The notes beneath the pieces were generated by a model that did not search any database, was not told the DNA's origin, and saw only the letters and a program-made list of their open reading frames with translations. Below are positions 9,035 through 62,977 of a stretch of 64,000 nt of DNA, piece by piece; position 1 is the stretch's first letter; each line of letters starts with the position of its first letter. Source of the DNA: Candidatus Udaeobacter sp. (GTDB lineage Bacteria > Patescibacteriota > Patescibacteriia > Magasanikbacterales > GWA2-37-8); NCBI GenBank assembly GCA_035473115.1, contig DATION010000002.1, positions 9,469-73,468 on the forward strand, given 5' to 3'. Position numbers and translations under genes: made by a program.

Positions 9035-9601
9035 ATGTCGGACGATTCATTGGATAAGTTAATGTATTCCTTTGTAATGGATGACGTCTTAAAAGGGCTT
9101 TTCATTAGTGTTCCTCCGGGGTATGTGGCTTGCGTGTATGATCTGGGCAGAGGAGTGCTGAAAAAAGTTTTAACTCCCGGATTACATTTAAAAATTCCTT
9201 TTTGGCAAAAAGCCAAGTTGTTTAATACTCAAACCTTAGAATATAGCGTTTCCCGCCAGTTTAATCCGGAGCACGAAAAGGCTTTGGGTGATATACCGAT
9301 TGCTGCCGGTACCAAAGATGGCCAGCGCGTGGGGGTAGAAGGCACAATTTTATTGCGTTTAGATGTTCATCAGGTGCCATCTATCTGGCAGACAGTCGGA
9401 GAAGACTTTGTAGCCAAAATTGTGCGTCCAACTATCCGGAGCCGGGTACGCATGGTATTTAGCAAATTTGATTACCAAGACATAGTTGGCGCCAAAAGAG
9501 ATTCCGTAGAAATGGAGCTAAAAAACGAACTGGAAAGGATATTTTATGCTCGAGGAATCTATGTAGAAAATGTTCTACTTAGCGAAATAGCCAAGATTTA
9601 A
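9035..9601 (+). CDS. SPFH/band-7 (prohibitin/HflC-like) domain protein
   Basis: Band-7 core (LHLKIPFWQKAKLFNTQTLEY...) and no obvious TM segment. Confidence 0.6.
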   Translation: MSDDSLDKLMYSFVMDDVLKGLFISVPPGYVACVYDLGRGVLKKVLTPGLHLKIPFWQKAKLFNTQTLEYSVSRQFNPEHEKALGDIPIAAGTKDGQRVGVEGTILLRLDVHQVPSIWQTVGEDFVAKIVRPTIRSRVRMVFSKFDYQDIVGAKRDSVEMELKNELERIFYARGIYVENVLLSEIAKI

Positions 9602-9624
9602 GCCAAACTACTTAATAAACTAAA

Positions 9625-9668
9625 AAATCGACCCAAACCAGACAGGTAGGGTCGATTTTTGTTTTTAA
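9625..9668 (+). terminator. Intrinsic terminator
   Basis: AAATCGACCC...GGGTCGATTT followed by TTGTTTTT. Confidence 0.6.
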
Positions 9669-9676
9669 CCTTGCCT

Positions 9677-9705
9677 TGACAAATACCTCAAAACGTGGTA
9701 GTATG
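9677..9705 (+). promoter_or_regulatory. Promoter for the GC-rich lipoprotein pair
   Basis: TTGACA, 17-nt spacer, TAGTAT with an extended TG. Confidence 0.55.
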
Positions 9706-9766
9706 GCGACTTGAGGCCTAGGAGTTGTTCCAAGAGGCTTCATAACTTGTTTTCGGAGGTTTTCCA

Positions 9767-10099
9767 ATGCAAAGTATCGCGATTCTTATCGCTCTCTGGC
9801 TCATCAGCTGTGTTGGCTGTGGCGCTGCTATTCAGACGCCAAAGGTCAAGAGGGATTTTATCGAGACACCCGGCGTGGTCGCTTTCGAGATCAAGCGTCC
9901 AAACGAGAGTGGTCAGCTCGTTCATCTGATCGGTCGTCGGTTCACTGATCCGGTGACTGTGGTCAGAGGCCCGTGCCATTTTGGCCCAGATTGTTTCACT
10001 TGGCCAGATCCACAGGAAGGAATGCAGACAGTCCAGGTTCTGGACCACTGGGAAGTCATTCTTACAGAAGAAACAACAGTTACAGTCGTCAACAACTGA
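9767..10099 (+). CDS. Small lipoprotein, unknown function (GC-rich island)
   Basis: Signal peptide with lipobox LISC; RBS GGAGG; about 52% GC. Several overlapping ORFs on both strands are GC-induced artefacts. Confidence 0.55.
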   Translation: MQSIAILIALWLISCVGCGAAIQTPKVKRDFIETPGVVAFEIKRPNESGQLVHLIGRRFTDPVTVVRGPCHFGPDCFTWPDPQEGMQTVQVLDHWEVILTEETTVTVVNN

Positions 10100-10132
10100 A
10101 GCTTCGCCAATTCCAGACAAGGAGAGTTTCCA

Positions 10133-10687
10133 ATGAAGTATTACATTATTGTTGCGATCGCTTTCATTGCCTTCGGCTGTGCTTCCACAGTACAGCAACC
10201 TGCGATGAAGAACAACACAGTTCCGATGGTCATGGGTGCGAATGCTCAGGTCGTTCAGCCAGTAACCGGAGCAGCTCCCAGGGCTGGCCAAGAGGTAATG
10301 GACATGGAGTTGGAGTTTCCAAAAACTCCCAAGAATTTGACGATCAAGGAAGTCCAGGCTGAACTCGGGTCATACACGGCGACGACCAATGGTTGCTATC
10401 TCAAGTATGTTCGCGATGTTCGTCGCGCCACATATATGGATCTGGCAATCGTGGTAGGTTGGAACGGTTATCCTGTTTCAATTAATGTAGTTGCTCCCGG
10501 GCTATCAGCTACAACCGAGAAGAAGATCGAGAGCTGTGTGCGGGATGAGATAGGTTCGTTGCTCCACTTTCCCGAGCGCCGTTTCGATACGACTGCGGTA
10601 ATACGGTACGAATTCCAGCATACCTACACAGAAACGCCTGGCGGCGGCCCACAGCTGAGCTGCTACAACCCGAACGGCTGCCACTAG
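10133..10687 (+). CDS. Secreted/lipoprotein, unknown function, Cys-rich C-terminus (GC-rich island)
   Basis: Signal peptide MKYYIIVAIAFIAFGCAS; RBS AGGAGAG; same spacing (tttccaATG) as the preceding gene. Confidence 0.55.
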   Translation: MKYYIIVAIAFIAFGCASTVQQPAMKNNTVPMVMGANAQVVQPVTGAAPRAGQEVMDMELEFPKTPKNLTIKEVQAELGSYTATTNGCYLKYVRDVRRATYMDLAIVVGWNGYPVSINVVAPGLSATTEKKIESCVRDEIGSLLHFPERRFDTTAVIRYEFQHTYTETPGGGPQLSCYNPNGCH

Positions 10688-10784
10688 GCGGCCCAGCAAG
10701 ATGTCGTGGCCGACAATCGTCGGCCCGCGGCTCGAAGAGAAGTCAAGGACTCCACCCGGGGTCCTGTTGTATTTTATAAGGTTC

Positions 10785-10813
10785 TTGACTTGGTTTTTAA
10801 GACATGATATATT
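10785..10813 (+). promoter_or_regulatory. Promoter of the hrcA-grpE-dnaK operon
   Basis: TTGACT, 17-nt spacer, TATATT. Confidence 0.55.
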
Positions 10814-10838
10814 ATCACTCATAAGGTTTGAGTGATAA
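10812..10838. promoter_or_regulatory. CIRCE-like HrcA operator (variant TTATCACTC-N9-GAGTGATAA)
   Basis: 9-9-9 architecture identical to CIRCE (TTAGCACTC-N9-GAGTGCTAA) with G>T/C>A swaps. Overlaps the -10 element upstream of hrcA. Confidence 0.65.
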
Positions 10839-10853
10839 TTGCTAAGGTCGAGT

Positions 10854-10877
10854 CAGATATATGCTTGCATATATCTG
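10854..10877. promoter_or_regulatory. Second perfect palindrome in the hrcA leader
   Basis: CAGATATATGC-tt-GCATATATCTG, 11-bp arms. Confidence 0.35.
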
Positions 10878-10917
10878 TGAGGCCTGACGCAATTACAAAG
10901 CTTTGCTTCTAACTTAT

Positions 10918-11598
10918 ATGAATATTCGCGGAGAAAAAATTTTAAATTTAGTTATTGAAAACTATATAGCCAATGCCGAACCGGTAGGCTCTAAATTTTT
11001 GGTTTCCGCAGCTGGTTTGGATCTTAGCGAAGCTACAGTCCGTAATGAACTGCGTGCTTTGGAAGAGGAAGGTTATCTTACTCATCCGCATACTTCGGCA
11101 GGACGAATTCCCACCGAAAAAGGTTATAAGCACTATATTAAAAATTTAAATTTAGCCAAGAGTAATATTTCCAAAAATGACAGCAAAGTCTTGGTGAATT
11201 CTTTGGATAAAACTAGTGACCATGACTTAGATATAAAAAGCTTAGCCAAAACAATGGTGGAACTATCTAATGAAACAGTAATTATTGCTTTTTCTCCAGA
11301 AAATATATATTATACCGGTCTGACCAATCTTTTTAATAAACCAGAGTTTGATGAGCGCAGTGTGGCGGCGGAAATTTTTGAAGTTTTTGATAATTGTGAA
11401 GACTCAATGGAAGATTTTTTTGCTAAAGTAGAAGATAATCCGAAATATTTTTTTGGCAATGAACATCCGTTTGGTGAAATGGTCAGTGTCCTATCCATGC
11501 GCTTTGGCAAAGAAGGTTTGGTGGCTATTTTGGGTCCGCAGCGAATGGATTATAAATACAATTTTGGTTTAATGAAAAAATTGTTAGAATTGATTTAG
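10918..11598 (+). CDS. hrcA: Heat-inducible transcription repressor HrcA (short form)
   Basis: N-terminal winged helix (AEPVGSKFLV...ATVRNELRALEEEGYL); operon context with grpE/dnaK and a CIRCE box. Confidence 0.8.
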   Translation: MNIRGEKILNLVIENYIANAEPVGSKFLVSAAGLDLSEATVRNELRALEEEGYLTHPHTSAGRIPTEKGYKHYIKNLNLAKSNISKNDSKVLVNSLDKTSDHDLDIKSLAKTMVELSNETVIIAFSPENIYYTGLTNLFNKPEFDERSVAAEIFEVFDNCEDSMEDFFAKVEDNPKYFFGNEHPFGEMVSVLSMRFGKEGLVAILGPQRMDYKYNFGLMKKLLELI

Positions 11599-11710: not shown

Positions 11711-12232
11711 ATGACAGATGAAGAAAAAAATAAAGAAGATTTGCCAAATGAAGCAGGTGGCATTCCAAGTGAATTAGATTTAGCTCAAGCGCAAGCTGAA
11801 GAATATAAAACTAATTGGCAGCGAGCTTTGGCTGATTATCGTAATTTGCAAAAAGAAACCGCTGCTATGCGTTCGCAATGGGCGCAGATGAGTGAAGAAC
11901 AGATTTTGCAGAATTTTATTCCGGTTTACGAAAATTTTAAAAAAGCATTTAGCGCCAATTTGTCCGCAACCGGCGGTGATAGCGAAAAACAGTGGCAAAA
12001 CTGGAAGCAGGGAATAGAATATATCATGAAGCAATTTGGCGATGTGTTGAAGTCTTATAATGTTCAAGAAATTAAAACTACTGACGAAAAGTTTGATCCG
12101 CGGATGCATGAAGCGATTAGCGAAGAACAGGTGGATGGTAAAGAAGCCGGAATTATTTTAAGAGAAGTTGAAGGTGGATATAAAATGGGTGATAAAATAA
12201 TAAAACCAGCGCGAGTTATTATTAGTAAATAA
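11711..12232 (+). CDS. grpE: Nucleotide exchange factor GrpE
   Basis: Coiled-coil N-terminus and GrpE C-terminal beta domain (...GGYKMGDKIIKPARVII). Confidence 0.85.
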   Translation: MTDEEKNKEDLPNEAGGIPSELDLAQAQAEEYKTNWQRALADYRNLQKETAAMRSQWAQMSEEQILQNFIPVYENFKKAFSANLSATGGDSEKQWQNWKQGIEYIMKQFGDVLKSYNVQEIKTTDEKFDPRMHEAISEEQVDGKEAGIILREVEGGYKMGDKIIKPARVIISK

Positions 12233-12240
12233 GTTTATTT

Positions 12241-12894
12241 ATGAGAAGAGGAGAAACAGGAGATTTTCCTAAACCTAATGAAAAAAAACTAGATCGTGCT
12301 GCCACGGACTCTTTGCTTGATGATCGGGCTAAAACTGAGGATCATTTTGCTAATGATGCTGTTGAGCCGCCTGTTATTCTTGCTACTCAACATAACGAGG
12401 ATAGTAGTACGTTAGGTAGTGTAACAGAGGCTGCTGGCATTATTGAAGAAGCTGAAGAAGTTAATTTTCCAACTGGAAATGATACAGACGATGATCAGAA
12501 TTTTAGAGACCCAGAGGATGATGTTGAGATAAACAAATTTGGCATGGAAAATTTAAGAAAGTTAAGAACAGTAGATGAGGGCGATAGTTTTGACATGGAA
12601 AAGTTTCTTAGAACAAGAGCTTTAAAAAATAAATTAGGTTTATCACTTCCTTTGTTTGAAGTAGATAATAGAAATCCAAAATATGAAAAGGTTTTGAGAG
12701 CTGCTGAGAAGATAGTGGCTAAAAGTGATTCGAGTAAAATGCTTGTTCATATCATGCAGCGTTTGGTAGTTCATCCTACAGTTTTACGTCGTTTATTAGA
12801 AAAATATATAATAGAAAAAAAGACCGCTGAAGATAATTATATAAAAGTAAGAGACGCTTTAGCTGAATTGGATGGAACCAAACAAGGTGAATAA
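12241..12894 (+). CDS. Hypothetical protein with an acidic disordered N-terminal half, inserted between grpE and dnaK
   Basis: ORF 217 aa, AT-rich like the host genome, no family recognised; the start codon is uncertain. Confidence 0.5.
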   Translation: MRRGETGDFPKPNEKKLDRAATDSLLDDRAKTEDHFANDAVEPPVILATQHNEDSSTLGSVTEAAGIIEEAEEVNFPTGNDTDDDQNFRDPEDDVEINKFGMENLRKLRTVDEGDSFDMEKFLRTRALKNKLGLSLPLFEVDNRNPKYEKVLRAAEKIVAKSDSSKMLVHIMQRLVVHPTVLRRLLEKYIIEKKTAEDNYIKVRDALAELDGTKQGE

Positions 12895-12927: not shown

Positions 12928-14829
12928 ATGTCTAAAGTTCTTGGAATCGACTTAGGTACAACCAATTCCTGCATGGCCATCATTGAAGGCGGCCAGCCAA
13001 AAGTAATTGAAAACAAAGAAGGCGCCCGCACCACTCCTTCTATTGTGGCTGTTTCCAAAACCGGTGAACGTCTGGTCGGTCAATTAGCCAAGCGTCAATC
13101 AATCACTAATCCACAAAATACTTTATACTCGGTTAAGCGTTTAATTGGTCGCCGTTTTGAAGACGCCGAAGTTAAGCGTGATTTGTCTCTTTTACCATAC
13201 AAAATAGTTAAGAGCGGTGATGCCGTAAAAATAGAGATGCAAGGCAAAGAATATACTCCGCAAGAAATTTCGGCCATGGTATTGCAGAAAATGAAAACCG
13301 ACGCTGAAGAAAAATTAGGCGAAAAAATTACGGAAGCGGTCATTACCGTGCCGGCTTATTTTGATGACGCGCAGCGCCAAGCCACCAAAGATGCTGGAAC
13401 AATTGCTGGTTTAAATGTTTTGCGTATTATTAACGAACCAACTGCCGCTGCTTTGGCCTATGGTTTTGATAAAAAGAAGGATCAAAAAATTGCAGTTTAC
13501 GATTTGGGCGGCGGAACTTTTGATATCTCTATTTTGGAAGTCAGCGCCGATACTGTGCAAGTTTTATCCACCAACGGCGATACTCATCTTGGCGGTGATG
13601 ATTTTGATCAGGTTATAATTTCTTGGATCTTAGAAGAGTTTAAACGCGACCAAGGTTTGGATTTGAGCAAAGATCCTTTGGCTCTGCAGCGCATAAAAGA
13701 AGCGGCAGAAAAAGCCAAAATAGAATTATCTACTGCTCAAGAAACCGAAATCAATCAGCCGTTTATTACTTCCGATTCTACCGGGCCAAAACATTTGGTA
13801 ATGAAATTAACTAGAGCTAAATTGGAAGAATTAGTGGGCGATTTAGTTGATAAAAGTATGATTCCGGTACGCAAAGCCTTGGAAGACGCCAAGCTTTCGG
13901 CTAGTGACTTAAACGAAGTAGTAATGGTCGGCGGTATGACTCGTATGCCGCTGGTATTGCAGACTGTAGAAAAATTCTTTGGTAAAAAACCAAATATCAG
14001 TGTTAATCCGGATGAAGTTGTAGCTGTTGGCGCAGCCGTACAAGCTGGTGTCTTAAAAGGTGAAGTACATGATGTATTATTACTCGATGTTATCCCGCTA
14101 TCTTTTGGTTTGGAAACTATGGGGGGTGTGATGACCAAACTGATTGAACGCAACACTACTATTCCAACTTCCAAGAGTCAAGTATTTTCTACTGCCGCTG
14201 ACAATCAACCGGCTGTAGAAATTAATGTTTTGCAAGGTGAGCGTCCAATGGCTGCCGACAATAAAAATTTGGGCAGATTTATTTTGGATGGCATTCCGCC
14301 AGCTCCGCGCGGTGTGCCTCAAGTAGAAGTTACTTTTGATATTGATGCCAACGGTATTTTAAATGTTAAAGCCAAAGACAAGGCTACTAACAAAGAACAG
14401 TCGATTCGCATTGAAGCTTCAACCGGTTTATCCAAAGAAGAAGTGGAAAAAATGAAAAAAGACGCGGAGTCTCACGCTGAAGAAGATAAGAAAAAACAAG
14501 AACTGATTGAAACAAAAAATTTGGCTGATACCATGGTTTATACTACCGAAAAAATGATGAAAGAAGTTGAAGAAAAGAAAGTTGATGTTAGCGAAGATGA
14601 AAAAAATAAAGTAAATGAAGCTCTAAAAGTTTTGAAAGAAGTAAAAGATAAAGATGATGTTGAGGCGATTAAAAAAGCTTCGGAAGAATTATCTAAAGTC
14701 GCTCAAGTTGTCGGTACCAAGATGTATCAACAACAGCAGACAGCCGGTCAGCCAGGAGCAGAAAAAAAAGATGAAAAAGGAAACGAAGGTCCGATAGAGG
14801 GTGAAGTTGTTGATGAGCAAAATAAATAA
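12928..14829 (+). CDS. dnaK: Chaperone DnaK (Hsp70)
   Basis: Full-length Hsp70 with [16 protein letters not shown] and IVLVGG motifs. Confidence 0.97.
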
Positions 14830-42744: not shown

Positions 42745-43464
42745 TTAAAGGCACACATGGTGCACAGTGCAGAAAGCTTTGATATCGGGCGGACCGATGT
42801 ATAATCCGTTTTCGTCCGTGGTGTACCACATCTTTTTGTCGTTCATGATACTCATTCCGTCTTCATATATATGAGGTAGTCCTGTGACGTGTCCCATCTC
42901 ATGAATTACGGTTTGTAGCAGGAGGTGATACATCTTGTTCTGAGCATCATCTGGCATCATCTTTACCGGATGATTTTTGATATAAGATGGAAATATGTCA
43001 ACATGCATTAGCACGTCCCCACCCGGTATGGCGAATCCTGTATTGTTACCATCTCCGGTACTATTGTCTCTTTCGAATTCTATCATCTCACGAGTTGTTT
43101 GCGGTATCTTGTAGACTACCACTCGTCCGTCAGTGAAGGAATTAGTTTTGGACGGGTCAAAGTCTTCGATGTTGATGAAGCCTTCGAAGATAAATACTTT
43201 CTTCCCGTTCCTAATATACGGAGCCATAGCAGTGTTCCACTGCTCGACAGCTCTCTGAATAAGCTCACGAGGGTTTTCTACCCGCATACCGTTGCTATCG
43301 TAAGCTGGATCTCCATTCCAGCTATCCTGAGCATACACATGGATCGGTAAAGATGGTGGCGGGTCTGCTGCGTCAAACATCTCTGTGAGACATCCAGTGG
43401 TGCCAGTAATAGCACCAAAGAATATCACCAGACGAATTACCAACGTCGACATAGCCCTAGCCAT
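42745..43464 (-). CDS. Metzincin-type zinc metalloprotease lipoprotein (GC-rich island)
   Basis: Signal peptide with lipobox TTGC; HEMGHVTGLPH (HExxHxxGxxH) followed by the Met-turn SIM. Confidence 0.65.
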   Translation of the reverse strand: MARAMSTLVIRLVIFFGAITGTTGCLTEMFDAADPPPSLPIHVYAQDSWNGDPAYDSNGMRVENPRELIQRAVEQWNTAMAPYIRNGKKVFIFEGFINIEDFDPSKTNSFTDGRVVVYKIPQTTREMIEFERDNSTGDGNNTGFAIPGGDVLMHVDIFPSYIKNHPVKMMPDDAQNKMYHLLLQTVIHEMGHVTGLPHIYEDGMSIMNDKKMWYTTDENGLYIGPPDIKAFCTVHHVCL

Positions 43465-43982
43465 AGCTGACCTTGTTTTTCTGCTCCCTCAATAAGGGGG
43501 CGGTAAAGGTATCCGAGTTGTTTGATCATTTCTGGGTTAGGAAGGAAAACCTTCCAGCTCGCCATCCCAGTCCATTTGCCAACTGCGACTTCTGCCCCTA
43601 TTCCCAGAGCAAGATCCCAGGAACGAGGCGTGTCTTGGTTGCTCAGATACTTAGAACCGAAATATCTGAAGTACCCGAGACTAACTGGCACTCGCCACCG
43701 TGCACCATGAGCAATGTCAATTGTTAGCTCTCCCAGCCAGCCGTGGTGGTTTAGAGAGGTACTCAATCCGAAGGGCGTATGTTCATTGCGGATCTTAGCA
43801 ACCAGATTCGTGGTTATTGTACGCCACTCTGGCTGTAGGATTGATGTGCCAACACTTGCACCAGCCTGAATCTCAAACCTTCCGGGAAGGTTGAAATCGA
43901 ACCCATCAGCCTTTGCGGTTTGGTTGAAGGTTGAGAGGCCAAGAAATAGCACCCCGACCACTAGAGTAAGTAGTACTTTCAT
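43437..43982 (-). CDS. Secreted beta-rich protein, possibly a small beta-barrel (OmpX/OmpW-like) (GC-rich island)
   Basis: Signal peptide; alternating hydrophobic pattern with an aromatic C-terminus; RBS GGAGG; 28-nt overlap with the downstream metzincin gene. Confidence 0.45.
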   Translation of the reverse strand: MKVLLTLVVGVLFLGLSTFNQTAKADGFDFNLPGRFEIQAGASVGTSILQPEWRTITTNLVAKIRNEHTPFGLSTSLNHHGWLGELTIDIAHGARWRVPVSLGYFRYFGSKYLSNQDTPRSWDLALGIGAEVAVGKWTGMASWKVFLPNPEMIKQLGYLYRPLIEGAEKQGQLWLGLCRRW

Positions 43983-51243: not shown

Positions 51244-51405
51244 ATTCTGTTACTTAATTAGAGTAACAATTTCTTTACAATTCAATTACAGGCGGTTTCT
51301 CTCTGTTTTAGAGGTCTTTAATTTGGGTCTCAAAAACAGGGAGAAATCCCGCTTCTTATCGGCAGTCCTGTTTCAGGACTGCTAACCACCGTTTCAAGAG
51401 GAGAG

Positions 51406-52275
51406 TTGAACATGATGAACTATCGGAATTCCTTGCAGTCGACCAGTGCCAATGGCCCGTTTATTGTCCTGGATCATTTCAGGATGACCAAGAAGCAAGT
51501 TGCCGAATTCCATCGGCGACTCCCCGGAGTGACCGAGGAGACGGTCCGCCAGGCGATCGAGCAGTACAACTTCTTCCTCGCCGAGGGTGGTAACGTCAGG
51601 CGCCCCTGGTTGCATGATGGTCAGAGCCGGATTGTCGCACCAATGTGCAGCGAAGCGGTGGACTTGCTCCAGCGTAAGTTCCCCAGGACCGTTGCGTCGT
51701 CCAATTGGTGTGGAGGATGGCCACGACAGCAGCAGCGCCAGGACCGTAAGGAGTACGGCCGGTACTACGAGCCGGGAGTCCGTGTGCTCATTGCTGCCAA
51801 GCGATCTCGTGTCGCGGTGGAGAAAGCACCAGTGACGACCTCGTCCCTGTCGATGGATTACGATGATGACTTTCCCGATCAGCGTGCATATGATAGAGCC
51901 TTCCGTGATCCTGATGACGATGACTATGGCCATGATGGAGACGGTGGCTTCTACGGAGATGGAGATGGTGATGGTTCGGACAACGAACCAAACCATGACA
52001 CCGACTCGGAGAATGCGACCAAGAAGATGTATGCCGCGACCCCTGTTGTGTTCAAACGATTCGGCGATCAGAAAACGATCGTTCTCGTCATCTCCAATGG
52101 TGATCGGAAGCGTGCCGAGATCTTCGAGATCAACGGGAGTGTTGTCACCACCCACAAGACCTCGCGTGCTCAGAAGTACACCGACGCTGAGCTCAAGGCC
52201 AAGGGATGGCAGCACGGCAATCTCGGTGACGAACGTTTCAAGCCGATTTTGGCGGTCATCCTGACCGCCAACTAG
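51406..52275 (+). CDS. Hypothetical bipartite protein with D/G-rich acidic linker (about 58% GC, foreign)
   Basis: RBS GAGGAG; N-terminal domain of about 130 aa, a DGDG/DDDD low-complexity linker, and a C-terminal domain of about 90 aa. The antisense 297-aa ORF is a GC artefact. Confidence 0.6.
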   Translation: MNMMNYRNSLQSTSANGPFIVLDHFRMTKKQVAEFHRRLPGVTEETVRQAIEQYNFFLAEGGNVRRPWLHDGQSRIVAPMCSEAVDLLQRKFPRTVASSNWCGGWPRQQQRQDRKEYGRYYEPGVRVLIAAKRSRVAVEKAPVTTSSLSMDYDDDFPDQRAYDRAFRDPDDDDYGHDGDGGFYGDGDGDGSDNEPNHDTDSENATKKMYAATPVVFKRFGDQKTIVLVISNGDRKRAEIFEINGSVVTTHKTSRAQKYTDAELKAKGWQHGNLGDERFKPILAVILTAN

Positions 52276-52404
52276 AAGGAGTCTCACTACCGTGAACTGA
52301 GCGTCAGTTCGCGGTACAGGCGCCCTCAGGAATATTTCTCCAGAGTCTGCGCTTCTTGCGCCAAATCATTTGGCCCCAGAAGCGCTCTGGAGAAATCCAA
52401 AACT

Positions 52405-61391: not shown

Positions 61392-62471
61392 ATGAAAAAT
61401 AGTCTTAAGAAAAATTCCAAGGAAAAAATTTTAGTTGCCATGAGCGGCGGAGTAGATTCTTCAGTTGCTGCTGCTCTTTTAGTTGCTCAAGGCCACGATG
61501 TTACCGGCGCTTTTATGGTAAATTATGACGAAATTGGCCCAAGCGGAGAATCTTGCTGGGCCGGAGATTACCAAGACGCGCTACGTGTAGCTGCTAAATT
61601 AAACATACCGCTATTGCGTTGGGATTTTGTTAAAGAGTACAAAAAAACCGTTTTGGATTACATGTATGCCGAATATGAAAAAGGCAGAACGCCCAATCCG
61701 GATGTTTTGTGCAATAAGTTTGTGAAGTTTGGCTCTTGGTTAGACAAAGCCAGAGAGTTAGGTTTTACCAAACTGGCTACGGGCCATTATGCGCAAACTA
61801 AAAAAATAAAAAATTCCACAAAATTAATAAAAGCTAAAGATGATAATAAAGACCAAACATATTTTTTGCATCAGCTTAGTCAAGACCAGCTAAAAGATAT
61901 TTTATTTCCCATTGGCGGTTATACAAAGCCGGAAGTGAGAAAACTGGCTAAAAAGTTTGGTTTGCCAAACGCGGACAAAGAAGAAAGTATGGGTATCTGT
62001 TTTATCGGTGAAGTGCCGATGAAAGATTTTTTGTTAAAAAAAATTAAATCCCAAAAAGGAAAAATAGTTCTAAGTACCGGCCAAATCATTGGCGAGCATG
62101 ATGGTTTATCTTTTTATACTATTGGTCAAAGAAATTTGGGTGTAAAAACAGATCAAAATAAACCTCTATATGTGCTTGATAAGAGTTTTGTCAAAAATGA
62201 ATTAGTTGTTGGTTATGAAGATGATCCTTTGTTATATAAAAAAGAGACAGAAATTACAGATGTAAATTGGATAAACGGACAAAAGCCAAAGCTGCCTTTA
62301 ACTTGTGAAGTTCGTTTACGCCATAGACAGCCGTTGCAGAAAGTAAAAGTGGAAGAAAAAAATGGTAAAGTATTTTTAAAATTTTCTAAAGCACAGCGTG
62401 CTGTAACCCCTGGGCAATTTGCAGTACTCTATGCAAAAAATGAATGCTTAGGTGGGGGAATCGTTAAATAA
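61392..62471 (+). CDS. mnmA: tRNA-specific 2-thiouridylase MnmA
   Basis: PP-loop SGGVDSSV with the catalytic Cys region. Confidence 0.9.
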   Translation: MKNSLKKNSKEKILVAMSGGVDSSVAAALLVAQGHDVTGAFMVNYDEIGPSGESCWAGDYQDALRVAAKLNIPLLRWDFVKEYKKTVLDYMYAEYEKGRTPNPDVLCNKFVKFGSWLDKARELGFTKLATGHYAQTKKIKNSTKLIKAKDDNKDQTYFLHQLSQDQLKDILFPIGGYTKPEVRKLAKKFGLPNADKEESMGICFIGEVPMKDFLLKKIKSQKGKIVLSTGQIIGEHDGLSFYTIGQRNLGVKTDQNKPLYVLDKSFVKNELVVGYEDDPLLYKKETEITDVNWINGQKPKLPLTCEVRLRHRQPLQKVKVEEKNGKVFLKFSKAQRAVTPGQFAVLYAKNECLGGGIVK

Positions 62472-62977
62472 AATTAAAAAGACCCGCCTAACAGCTCTAC
62501 CGCTCTTGTACGCCTCACATAAGCGCGAACGGTCTGTCTGTTGGCAGGTCGTAGGTCGGGTGGGCGGCTCTGCGCCCCGGTTTTGTTTTCTTGTGCTTGG
62601 TAGGCTCTTTGTGCTGCACAGCACATTGAGCTTTCTAGCCTAGAGGACAGCTAGATGGGGTTCACTAACCCCATGTGTCTGGAATGACTCGCTCCTTCTT
62701 GCCAATTGCCATCATTTTTCCAGCCACCTTGCACTAGTTTTTTCTCCTTATTATTTTTTGTTTAGCTGGTTTTCGGGCCCATGTTTCCGGTGCGCTCTCT
62801 GGCGCCTTTTTCCGCTTTGGACCCTTTGTGATTGTCGGCTTCCATTCGGTGCCGACCTCAACCGGCGTATGGGGCTTTACTTAGGCCACCGATTACGCAT
62901 TCAGATAGTAGTACTTCTCTTGAATTTTGTCAAGAATAATGTTAAATTATTCACAGTTTAAATTATTAAATATCGTT

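What the first reader, a model, noticed from the sequence alone, without database searches (positions are those of the whole stretch)
9677..10687. GC-rich island encoding two small lipoproteins/secreted proteins with their own promoter
A strong promoter (TTGACA-17-TAGTAT) drives two tandem genes at about 52% GC, each with an RBS and identical tttccaATG spacing. Both have signal peptides (lipobox LISC; AFGCAS), and the second ends in a Cys-rich tail (GGGPQLSCYNPNGCH). The pair is flanked by host-type terminators. This is a compact, horizontally acquired surface module of unknown function, a candidate host-interaction or toxin/immunity-like pair.
Basis: partly seen in the sequence, partly recalled or inferred. 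Interest (0 to 1): 0.55.

Follow-up and report, generated by a model that had tools for sequence, protein, structure and literature searches.

The report
Foreign lipoprotein operon in CPR genome
A tiny candidate-phyla-radiation bacterium (Candidatus Magasanikbacteria) carries, next to its heat-shock operon, a small GC-rich two-gene cassette for surface lipoproteins, one of them borrowed from soil myxobacteria (Kofleriaceae), so this is a real and fairly clean cross-phylum gene capture whose function is still unknown.

Summary
Window 9676-10775 holds a self-contained operon: promoter, conserved 5' hairpin, two ORFs (9767-10099, 10133-10687) and a terminator. It has 52% GC against 38-39% in the host. 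It lies between an SPFH/Band-7 gene and the CIRCE-controlled hrcA-grpE-dnaK operon.

- **Host:** Candidatus Magasanikbacteria (Patescibacteria/CPR). In 56 of 72 related species this spacer is at most 350 nt. In 14 it holds unrelated inserts, so the site is a variable hotspot.
- **ORF2:** lipobox, a roughly 50-aa tether, an AgmX/PglI-type (TonB-C-terminal-like) domain and a conserved Cys tail. It belongs to a family otherwise seen as a single-copy syntenic gene of 70%-GC Kofleriaceae (Myxococcota).
- **ORF1:** belongs to a very rare family of about 100-aa all-beta lipoproteins. Gene callers missed it.
- **Distribution:** the cassette recurs at the same site only in a small sister clade (L008, L009-L011). 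L016 has ORF2 alone.
- **Evolution:** both genes are under purifying but relaxed selection (dN/dS 0.3-0.47). The window's ORF2 and the sister clade's ORF2 trace to different Kofleriaceae branches, which suggests two captures or a replacement.

The toxin/immunity idea has no support. Function is inferred only: surface-displayed protein-binding modules, possibly aimed at a partner cell.

The parts
9035..9601 (+). Upstream host gene: SPFH/Band-7 protein (188 aa). It is the left anchor of the insertion site.
   Evidence: Pfam PF01145, E = 7.9e-25. It is 94-98% identical in related Magasanikbacteria.
9628..9672 (+). Intrinsic terminator of the SPFH gene: stem CGACCC/GGGTCG followed by a T-run.
   Evidence: RNA fold of -14.4 kcal/mol; inverted repeat I1. 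An equivalent hairpin is present in L008, L009 and L016.
9676..9704 (+). Cassette promoter, TTGACA-17-TAGTAT, with an extended -10 TG.
   Evidence: 10 of 12 consensus matches. The same architecture is conserved in L008, L009 and L016.
9712..9742 (+). Conserved two-tier hairpin at the 5' end of the leader, probably an mRNA-stabilising 5' stem-loop (inferred).
   Evidence: It folds at -12.7 to -16.5 kcal/mol in all four cassette-bearing genomes, with base changes that keep the pairing.
9767..10099 (+). ORF1: a 110-aa predicted lipoprotein. RBS GGAGG at 9755-9759. Lipobox Cys15 (9809-9811) or Cys18 (9818-9820). Invariant Cys70 and Cys76, and the motif PVTV.RGPC....DC.WP. The mature domain is all-beta.
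   Evidence: ORF. Homologues P0121, P0122, P0123 and P0126 (E = 1.8e-13 to 5.7e-4) come from an exhaustive search. The AF2 model has pLDDT above 90 for residues 31-105, with no PDB fold or sequence match. dN/dS is 0.30-0.47. There is no Pfam or NCBIfam hit.
10133..10687 (+). ORF2: a 184-aa predicted lipoprotein. RBS GGAGA at 10121-10125. Signal peptide and lipobox are residues 1-16 (10133-10180). A low-confidence tether covers residues 17-68 (10181-10336). The AgmX/PglI-type TonB-CTD-like domain covers residues 69-162 (10337-10618), with invariant Cys88 and Cys135. The conserved tail TETPGGGPQLSCYNPNGCH (residues 166-184, 10628-10684) ends the C-terminal segment 163-184.
   Evidence: NCBIfam NF033768 scores 17.6 bits for residues 72-162, below the 40-bit cut-off. 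ORF2 is 52% identical to P0002, which NCBI names an AgmX/PglI C-terminal domain protein. The family holds 171 proteins, and all 74 aligned members hit NF033768. The AF2 model has pLDDT of 92-97 for most of residues 71-160 (83 for 91-100). The top PDB matches are the C-terminal domains of TonB, HasB and TolA. dN/dS is 0.33-0.43.
10746..10775 (+). Intrinsic terminator of the cassette.
   Evidence: Eight-pair stem with 5 G-C pairs plus a T-run; -14.4 kcal/mol.
10785..10839 (+). hrcA promoter (TTGACT-17-TATATT) overlapping the CIRCE operator TTATCACTC-N9-GAGTGATAA. This is the right anchor of the insertion site.
   Evidence: Promoter. Perfect 11-nt inverted repeat I3 at 10811-10839. The element is conserved in empty-site and filled-site relatives.
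10918..11598 (+). Downstream host gene hrcA, followed by grpE at 11711-12232 and dnaK at 12928-14829.
   Evidence: Pfam PF01628. The start codon was set by comparison with the 226-aa homologues.

Best explanation
**What it is**
The region is a horizontally acquired two-gene operon in a Candidatus Magasanikbacteria (Patescibacteria/CPR) chromosome. It sits in the short spacer between the SPFH gene and the CIRCE/hrcA heat-shock operon. In this lineage that spacer is a recurrent landing site for unrelated foreign genes.

**How it is expressed**
Transcription runs from its own host-type extended -10 promoter, through a conserved 5' hairpin leader, to its own terminator.

**The two products**
- Both products are exported and, by the lipobox rule, lipid-anchored. 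In a cell without an outer membrane (established knowledge for CPR) this places them on the cell surface.
- ORF2 descends from a single-copy secreted protein of Kofleriaceae (Myxococcota) that has a type-I signal peptide. The original is built from an AgmX/PglI-type, TonB-C-terminal-like domain plus a disulfide-looped tail. In this genome it has gained a lipobox and a roughly 50-residue flexible tether.
- ORF1 is a small all-beta lipoprotein with one conserved Cys pair, from a very rare family otherwise seen in high-GC soil bacteria.

**Most likely working (inferred, not shown)**
ORF2 acts as a tethered protein-protein binding module. This is what TonB/TolA/GltG-type C-terminal domains do: they bind partner proteins. 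A CPR cell has no TonB-dependent outer-membrane partners of its own, so the ligand is more likely on another cell's envelope or in the cell wall. ORF1 is an accessory that can be lost.

**History**
The cassette was fixed in the ancestor of a small clade. Its ORF2 was later exchanged, or captured a second time, from a different Kofleriaceae branch.
For: **Real, expressed unit**
- The leader and promoter are conserved in four genomes.

**Host**
- The 80 best SPFH loci are Magasanikbacteria/Patescibacteria MAGs.

**Foreign origin**
- GC is 0.52 against 0.38, and GC3 is 0.53-0.57 against 0.30-0.40.
- 56 of 72 species representatives have an empty spacer of at most 350 nt.
- ORF1 is found only in the window (W), L008 and L009. 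ORF2 is found only in W, L008, L009 and L016.
- On a housekeeping-gene tree the cassette-bearing genomes form one clade, next to the cassette-free L017 and L018.

**Donor**
- The ORF2 family has 171 members. Those with a source name are Kofleriaceae or 'Deltaproteobacteria', with about 71% GC. In every locus examined the gene lies between Peptidase_S46 and UvrD.
- The window protein is the compositional outlier of the family: FYMINK residues make up 27% against a median of 12%.

**Domain**
- GltG and GltJ TonB-CTD-like domains act as periplasmic protein-binding modules (PMC11761067).

**Lipoproteins**
- Pattern test.

**Selection**
- dN/dS is 0.30-0.47 for both genes, against 0.005-0.08 for the flanking genes.

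**Two donor branches**
- W ORF2 is 52.5% identical to Kofleriaceae clade A and 41.7% to clade B. The L008-type proteins are 37-41% identical to A and 44-47% to B. W against L008-type is only 31%.
- At the 36 sites where the two clade consensuses differ, W matches A at 19 and B at 3 (p = 0.0009).
- Monophyly of the CPR copies appears in 32 of 200 bootstraps.

**Hotspot**
- 14 species carry inserts longer than 600 nt, of at least 8 unrelated kinds.
Against: - No experiment or expression data exist. The surface location rests on a pattern match, not on LipoP or SignalP, and Lgt/Lsp were not looked for in this genome.
- The window's ORF2 scores below NCBIfam's cut-off, and no Pfam TonB_C hit exists for any family member.
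- The Foldseek matches are weak in absolute terms: best E = 9e-4, TM 0.3-0.5.
- The function of the donor family in Kofleriaceae is itself unknown.
- The two-donor inference uses NJ on 113 columns. The clades were chosen from the same tree, which is partly circular. The L008-type preference for clade B is not individually significant (p = 0.06-0.27).
- ORF1 and ORF2 have similar GC3 within each genome but different GC3 between genomes (W about 0.55, L009 about 0.72). This could equally mean that whole cassettes were exchanged rather than ORF2 alone.
- No mobility gene is present, and the only border repeat is an 11-nt imperfect one.
Confidence: 0.6

Rival explanations
1. There was one ancient transfer only. 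The whole cassette, including ORF2, entered the clade ancestor once. The 31% identity between the window's ORF2 and the sister clade's ORF2 then reflects very fast divergence, for example after the switch from a secreted protein to a lipoprotein.
For: The promoter, leader and ORF1 are homologous across the four genomes, and the cassette-bearing genomes are monophyletic. 32 of 200 bootstraps still recover a single CPR clade. ORF1 is also very divergent at 39-42% identity. dS is saturated, so the time elapsed is long.
Against: The window's ORF2 is much closer to Kofleriaceae clade A (52.5%) than to its positional counterparts (31%), and the counterparts lean towards clade B. In the L008-L009 pair, ORF1 accumulates 2.3 times more dN than ORF2. 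In the W-L008 pair, ORF2 has more dN than ORF1 (0.71 against 0.58). Long-branch attraction would favour a single CPR clade, not oppose it.
Confidence: 0.3
2. The cassette serves the cell's own envelope. Both lipoproteins would work with the neighbouring SPFH and heat-shock functions, for example in membrane or cell-wall organisation under stress, rather than in contact with another cell.
For: The cassette lies directly between an SPFH scaffold gene and the hrcA-grpE-dnaK operon. TolA- and TonB-like C-terminal domains also take part in envelope integrity, which is established knowledge.
Against: The same spacer holds at least 8 unrelated cargos in other species and is empty in 78% of them, so the position looks accidental. 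The cassette has its own promoter and terminator and no CIRCE. The nearest sister genomes do without it.
Confidence: 0.15
3. It is a toxin/immunity or defence pair.
For: Small tandem genes in a foreign islet with fast-evolving sequences.
Against: There are no PADLOC, PHROGs, Pfam or NCBIfam toxin or immunity hits. Both products carry export signals. The genes occur separately in L016, Kofleriaceae, L012 and L015. ORF2 has a binding-domain fold.
Confidence: 0.03
4. It is not foreign at all: native, rapidly evolving surface genes whose GC-richness comes from selection on codons or amino acids; or else an assembly chimera.
For: The promoter and RBS are host-like. The cassette has clearly been resident for a long time.
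Against: ORF1 is absent from all 80 related species representatives and ORF2 from 79 of them. ORF2 belongs to a syntenic Kofleriaceae gene family. The GC3 excess is 0.2-0.4 over the flanks in four genomes. The same junctions are found in a second assembly and in four other genomes from different samples.
Confidence: 0.03

Closest known systems
AgmX/PglI C-terminal domain proteins (NCBIfam NF033768, 'myxo_SS_tail'): the periplasmic TonB-CTD-like domains of the Myxococcus gliding proteins GltJ (AgmX) and GltG (PglI), and the small secreted Kofleriaceae proteins of this family
   Same: ORF2 residues 72-162 align to positions 4-90 of the 92-position model. It has the same helix-helix-strand-strand-helix-strand core and the same invariant Cys pair. 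It is 52% identical to Kofleriaceae members that NCBI names this way, and it carries the same C-terminal PGGGPQLSC(W/Y)NPxGC(H) tail.
   Different: It is encoded in a 38%-GC CPR genome rather than in Myxococcota. It has a lipobox and a roughly 50-aa tether in place of a type-I signal peptide. It scores below the curated cut-off (17.6 against 40 bits). It lacks the cytoplasmic and transmembrane parts of GltG and GltJ, and no Glt or Agl genes lie nearby.
TonB / TolA / HasB C-terminal domains
   Same: These are the best structural matches to the ORF2 model: 6sly, 2m2k, 5lw8, 9dc4_T, 6s3w and 2x9a. Like ORF2, they have a flexible spacer followed by a small alpha/beta binding domain.
   Different: There is no Pfam TonB_C match in any family member. 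ORF2 has no N-terminal transmembrane helix to couple to ExbBD or TolQR, no such motor genes nearby, and a host that presumably lacks an outer membrane. It cannot work as an energy transducer.
Integration hotspots / genomic islets between conserved core genes (for example variable surface-antigen loci flanked by conserved genes)
   Same: The flanks are conserved (SPFH 94-98%, DnaK about 95%), the cargo between them varies among species, the composition is atypical, and the contents evolve fast and are surface-exposed.
   Different: It is very small (1.1 kb), with no integrase, tRNA or clear att repeats. The cargo carries its own host-type promoter.

Membership tests
AgmX/PglI C-terminal domain (NCBIfam NF033768) | Whole-protein HMM score at or above the curated cut-off of 40 bits | tested here: not met
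   The window's ORF2 scores 17.6 bits, E = 0.0031, over residues 72-162. All 74 aligned relatives match at E <= 0.01, with a best E of 3.6e-13.
AgmX/PglI C-terminal domain (NCBIfam NF033768) | Clear homology to proteins that are accepted members | tested here: met
   52% identity over 116 residues to P0002 (pairwise BLASTP E = 4e-43). NCBI names P0002 and P0078 'AgmX/PglI C-terminal domain-containing protein'.
AgmX/PglI C-terminal domain (NCBIfam NF033768) | TonB-CTD-like alpha/beta fold with a conserved Cys pair | tested here: met
   The AF2 model has pLDDT of 92-97 for most of residues 71-160 (83 for 91-100), with elements H71-79, H82-92, E101-108, E114-120, H126-140 and E153-160. The top PDB hits are TonB, HasB and TolA C-terminal domains. 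C88 and C135 are invariant in 74 sequences.
TonB energy transducer | Pfam TonB_C (PF03544/PF13103) match | tested here: not met
   No such hit for ORF2 or for any of the 74 family members.
TonB energy transducer | N-terminal transmembrane anchor with an ExbB/ExbD partner system and TonB-dependent receptors | tested here: not met
   The N-terminus is a cleavable lipoprotein signal. The neighbouring genes are SPFH and hrcA. The rest of the genome beyond the window was not searched.
Bacterial membrane lipoproteins (PROSITE PS51257 lipobox) | Hydrophobic signal peptide followed by [LIVMFWSTAG](2)-[LIVMFYSTAGCQ]-[AGS]-C within the first 40 residues | tested here: met
   Met by ORF1 at Cys15, ORF2 at Cys16, and all four ORF1 homologues. 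Not met by the L008-type and Kofleriaceae ORF2 proteins, which have AxA-type signal peptides.
Bacterial membrane lipoproteins (PROSITE PS51257 lipobox) | Processing by Lgt and LspA in the host | not tested
   The genome outside the 64-kb window was not available, and no lgt or lspA search was made.
Horizontally acquired genomic islet | Absent from close relatives at an otherwise conserved site, with a compositional deviation and a donor-side phylogeny | tested here: met
Horizontally acquired genomic islet | Mobility machinery or target-site repeats | tested here: not met
   No integrase, transposase or tRNA at the site. The only repeat at the borders is an imperfect 11-nt AT-rich one at 9658 and 10790.
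Toxin-immunity / defence pair | A recognisable toxin or defence domain and obligate co-occurrence of the two genes | tested here: not met
   No PADLOC, PHROGs, Pfam or NCBIfam hit. The genes occur separately.

The most novel reading that the evidence does not exclude
This Magasanikbacteria clade lives attached to Kofleriaceae-type myxobacteria. It has captured, probably twice and at the same chromosomal hotspot, a host periplasmic TonB-CTD-like protein, and now displays it on a lipid anchor and flexible tether as a mimic or adhesin that docks onto the host's own envelope machinery. If so, the cassette would be both a host-interaction factor and the first sequence-based pointer to a host for Magasanikbacteria.
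Probability: 0.12. Interest if true: 0.8.

Novelty: new variant of a known kind. Interest (0 to 1): 0.45.

Why it matters
CPR/Patescibacteria are thought to depend on partner cells, but for most lineages, Magasanikbacteria included, neither the partners nor the contact molecules are known.

- **A concrete candidate.** This is a small surface-exposed, foreign cassette whose donor family can be named (Kofleriaceae), and which seems to have been acquired or exchanged more than once. It is a testable candidate for an interaction factor and a possible clue to the partner organism.
- **A protein refit.** It shows how a secreted, probably periplasmic, protein of a diderm can be adapted to a monoderm-type cell by gaining a lipobox and a tether.
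- **A practical warning.** Standard gene callers miss or mis-strand genes in GC-rich islets of low-GC genomes. ORF1 is absent from the protein databases, and an antisense ORF was called in L008. Surveys based on predicted proteins will therefore under-count such acquisitions.

If the function turns out to be ordinary envelope housekeeping, the finding remains a tidy but unremarkable case of HGT.

Tried and rejected
- **ORF1 word-index search.** The word-index protein search found nothing, not even ORF1 itself. The exhaustive HMMER search was needed.
- **P0124.** This 1385-aa hit to ORF1 is only a 22-residue repeated 'FTW.DP' motif without the cysteines, in a phage-tail-like Ig/fn3 protein. I treated it as chance.
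- **Metagenome scans for ORF1.** The three-sequence scan returned only the contig already known.
- **Small lipoproteins next to ORF1 relatives.** The 127-aa protein in L012 was compared with the ORF2 profile and the 113-aa protein in L015 with the ORF1 profile. Neither comparison gave a significant match.
- **Antisense 183-aa ORF (9740-10291).** It has no family hit and overlaps two ORFs that are supported by homology, so I rejected it as a GC-driven artefact.
- **Pfam DUF4330.** The weak hit to ORF2 (15.5 bits against a 27.6-bit cut-off) was ignored.
- **Rfam.** Nothing was found in the region.
- **Literature.** Searches found no prior description of this cassette or of Magasanikbacteria-Myxococcota links.
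- **First phylogeny script.** It timed out and was rewritten.
Full report
**1. Observation**

- Two same-strand ORFs lie at 9767-10099 (110 aa) and 10133-10687 (184 aa).
- Each ORF has 51.7% GC, with GC3 of 0.53 and 0.57. The neighbouring SPFH, hrcA, dnaK, yidC and gdh genes have 35-42% GC and GC3 of 0.30-0.40. The window mean is 38.9%.
- A TTGACA-17-TAGTAT promoter with a TG extension sits at 9676-9704.
- The two ribosome-binding regions form a 15-nt direct repeat, GGAGGTTTTCCAATG and GGAGAGTTTCCAATG.
- Hairpin-plus-T-run terminators flank the unit, each folding at -14.4 kcal/mol.
- Downstream come the hrcA promoter and a perfect CIRCE inverted repeat at 10811-10839, then hrcA-grpE-dnaK-dnaJ.
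- A second assembly of the same sequencing run is identical over 11.6 kb.

**2. Are the ORFs genes?**

ORF2 is in the public protein databases and has a family of 171 relatives.

ORF1 is in no protein database. It was not called in either annotation of this contig. An exhaustive HMMER scan of 1.84 billion representatives nevertheless found five homologues of similar size, counting the frameshifted allele P0125. These share a lipobox, an invariant Cys pair and the motif PVTV.RGPC....DC.WP.

Pairwise dN/dS is 0.30-0.47 for ORF1 and 0.33-0.43 for ORF2. It is 0.005-0.01 for SPFH and 0.05-0.08 for hrcA. Both ORFs are therefore protein-coding and under purifying but relaxed selection. The 183-aa antisense ORF is a by-product of the GC-rich sequence.

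**3. Host and insertion site**

The 80 best genomic matches to the SPFH protein (81-97% identity) carry one of three kinds of label. Some are named Candidatus Magasanikbacteria, Magasanikiibacteriota or Patescibacteria. Some are generic, such as 'bacterium' or 'uncultured bacterium'. The rest carry labels that look wrong for this set, such as 'uncultured Gammaproteobacteria' and one 'Candidatus Paceibacter'. NCBI's label for the source contig, 'Candidatus Udaeobacter sp.', is therefore almost certainly a mis-assignment.

In 72 of the 80 species representatives SPFH is followed directly by hrcA.
- In 56 of them the spacer is at most 350 nt (median 197). The SPFH terminator hairpin then carries the hrcA -35 box in its loop, followed by the -10 box and CIRCE.
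- In 14 the spacer exceeds 600 nt. It holds at least eight unrelated cargos, six of them enriched in GC.

The site is thus a recurrent landing place for foreign genes.

**4. Distribution of the cassette**

Profile searches of all six-frame ORFs in these loci gave the following.
- ORF1 is present only in the window, L008 and L009 (and in L010 and L011, which carry the same protein as L009).
- ORF2 is present only in those genomes and in L016.

Further points:
- In L008 the JGI annotation had called an antisense ORF instead of ORF2.
- L016 has the same promoter and leader driving ORF2 alone.
- P0125 is an ORF1 allele with a frameshift.
- On a concatenated YidC-SPFH-HrcA-GrpE-DnaK tree the cassette-bearing genomes form one clade, W + (L008, (L009, L016)), next to the cassette-free L017 and L018.
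- The promoter (TTGACA, 17 nt, TG-extended -10) and a two-tier 5' hairpin are conserved in all four genomes, with base changes that preserve the pairing.

The simplest history is one insertion in the clade ancestor, followed by loss of ORF1 in L016.

**5. Origin of ORF2**

Every family member that carries a source name is from Kofleriaceae or 'Deltaproteobacteria' MAGs. Kofleriaceae belong to Myxococcota, order Haliangiales.

In all four Kofleriaceae-type contexts examined the gene is monocistronic and lies next to a divergent Peptidase_S46 gene. A UvrD helicase gene lies on its other side in the three contexts that extend that far. The contigs checked have about 71% GC. There is no ORF1 upstream. 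There it encodes a protein with a type-I signal peptide.

The window protein is the compositional outlier of the family. FYMINK residues make up 27% against a median of 12%. Its GC3 is intermediate between donor and host. It has therefore been resident long enough to ameliorate, which fits the saturated dS.

**6. One capture or two?**

The flanking proteins of the window and its sisters are 81-98% identical, except YidC at 72-75%. ORF1 is only 39-42% identical and ORF2 only 31-32%.
- The window's ORF2 domain is 52.5% identical to one Kofleriaceae group (A: P0002, P0003, P0005, P0022, P0031, P0039) and 41.7% to another (B: P0083, P0086, P0089, P0098).
- The L008, L009 and L016 proteins show the reverse: 37-41% to A and 44-47% to B.
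- At the 36 sites where the A and B consensus differ, the window protein sides with A at 19 and with B at 3 (p = 0.0009). The L008-type proteins side with B at 9-11 and with A at 3-4.
- Motifs agree. The window has FQHT..ETPGGGPQLSC...GCH, as in group A. The others have FHKA.APGDGPQ.SC, close to the FHKTDAPNAGPQ of group B.
- NJ recovers a single CPR clade in only 32 of 200 bootstraps.
- In the L008-L009 pair ORF1 diverges faster than ORF2. In the W-L008 pair the order is reversed.

I read this as a second capture or an allelic replacement from a different Kofleriaceae branch, with probability about 0.6.

Three caveats apply. The alignment is short. The clade choice was partly circular, because it came from the same tree. 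Within each genome ORF1 and ORF2 have similar GC3, which would also fit exchange of the whole coding cassette.

**7. What the proteins are**

*ORF2*
- Residues 72-162 match NCBIfam NF033768 (AgmX/PglI C-terminal domain) at 17.6 bits, below the 40-bit cut-off. All 74 aligned relatives match the same model.
- The AF2 model built on the family alignment has pLDDT of 92-97 for most of residues 71-160 (83 for residues 91-100). Residues 17-68 and the tail are modelled with low confidence.
- The best PDB matches are the C-terminal domains of TonB, HasB and TolA.
- No Pfam TonB_C match exists.
- In Myxococcus the homologous domains of GltG and GltJ are periplasmic protein-binding modules that dock onto GltD and GltF (PMC11761067).
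- Cys88 and Cys135 are invariant. Cys177 and Cys183 are nearly invariant.

*ORF1*
- Its model has pLDDT above 90 for residues 31-105 and consists of five beta strands.
- It has no significant PDB fold or sequence match.

*Export signals*
- Both window proteins satisfy the PROSITE lipobox pattern.
- The sister-clade and Kofleriaceae ORF2 proteins do not.
- The lipobox-plus-tether form of ORF2 is therefore specific to this genome.

**8. Mechanism**

*Shown:* an autonomous operon of foreign origin that encodes two exported, Cys-paired small proteins, one with a TonB-CTD-like binding fold.

*Inferred:* both are lipid-anchored on the outer face of the membrane. CPR cells lack an outer membrane (established knowledge), so both would be exposed on the surface. 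ORF2 would work as a tethered protein-binding module. The cell has no TonB-dependent partners of its own, so the ligand would be foreign or in the wall. ORF1 is dispensable.

The speculative extension is mimicry of a Kofleriaceae host protein by an epibiont. It is attractive because the same donor family appears twice, but nothing here tests it.

**9. Rivals**

- A single ancient transfer followed by fast divergence remains possible (0.3).
- A self-directed envelope role linked to SPFH and heat shock is weakened by the hotspot behaviour of the site and by the cassette's separate regulation (0.15).
- Toxin/immunity, native origin and assembly chimera are each very unlikely.

**10. Verdict**

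It can now be stated more exactly: a Kofleriaceae-derived AgmX/PglI-domain lipoprotein plus a rare orphan lipoprotein, in a Magasanikbacteria hotspot, shared by a small clade.

This is a new variant of a known kind, an HGT islet carrying a known domain in a new guise and a new host. It is of moderate interest, mainly as a lead for CPR-host biology.

Noticed in passing
window 9601-10918, compared with L016-L095: The SPFH-hrcA spacer is a variable hotspot across Candidatus Magasanikbacteria. In 56 of 72 species it is at most 350 nt. In 14 it holds inserts longer than 600 nt, of at least 8 unrelated kinds. Examples are a GC3 = 0.86 MGH1-like glycoside hydrolase in L037, a shared 105-110-aa gene in L037 and L039, and a native-GC 131-147-aa gene in L071, L073 and L077.
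   Followed up: partly
window 42745-43982 (- strand): A second GC-rich islet (about 50% GC). It holds a 239-aa ORF with a lipobox (GTTG|C) and a weak Peptidase_M10 hit (E = 4.6e-4, below the cut-off), plus a 181-aa ORF with no family hit. Apart from an antisense ORF inside grpE that I treated as spurious, this is the only lipobox ORF outside the studied cassette found by the pattern scan of the window, which required a K/R in the first 8 residues.
   Followed up: partly
window 51300-52300 and 62400-62900: Two further GC-rich patches. The first reaches 60% GC and has near-full-length overlapping ORFs on both strands (297 aa on -, 289 aa on +) with no Pfam hit. The second reaches about 52% GC and has only short ORFs.
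   Followed up: no
window 12241-12894: A 217-aa acidic ORF of native GC (35%) is wedged between grpE and dnaK. It is absent from the sister genomes L008 and L016, where grpE is followed directly by dnaK. Only partial homologues exist, in L020 and L024.
   Followed up: partly
window 9767-10099; L008 5515-5961: Gene callers fail in these GC-rich islets. ORF1 of the window is absent from all protein collections, and in L008 the JGI annotation called an antisense ORF instead of the ORF2 homologue.
   Followed up: yes
source contig of the window; L018-L027 and others: There are taxonomic label conflicts. NCBI names the source 'Candidatus Udaeobacter sp.', and many related TPA MAGs are labelled 'uncultured Gammaproteobacteria bacterium'. 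Their SPFH-hrcA-dnaK loci are 81-97% identical in SPFH to genomes named Magasanikbacteria.
   Followed up: partly
L018 6564-6660, L019, L020, L021: In empty-site genomes the SPFH terminator hairpin carries the hrcA -35 hexamer (TTGAC) in its loop, and its T-run forms the promoter spacer. This is a compact terminator/promoter overlap.
   Followed up: no
L017 6564-6861; L025 4655-5056: The nearest cassette-free relatives have a different tiny ORF with its own RBS in the same spacer. It is about 45 aa and begins MWNLVKRILQRVGLKK... in L017.
   Followed up: no
window 9658-9668 and 10790-10800: An imperfect 11-nt direct repeat (TTTGTTTTTAA and TTGGTTTTTAA) brackets the cassette, and each copy lies near a TTGAC box. 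It could be a trace of the insertion event or simply chance in AT-rich DNA.
   Followed up: no
L015 40-801; L012 4001-4872: In high-GC genomes the ORF1 relatives sit in runs of other small exported proteins: a 113-aa ORF with a similar layout in L015 and a 127-aa lipoprotein in L012. Several of these signal peptides share an MKNLLIS/MRNLLIS start with the L009-type ORF2.
   Followed up: partly
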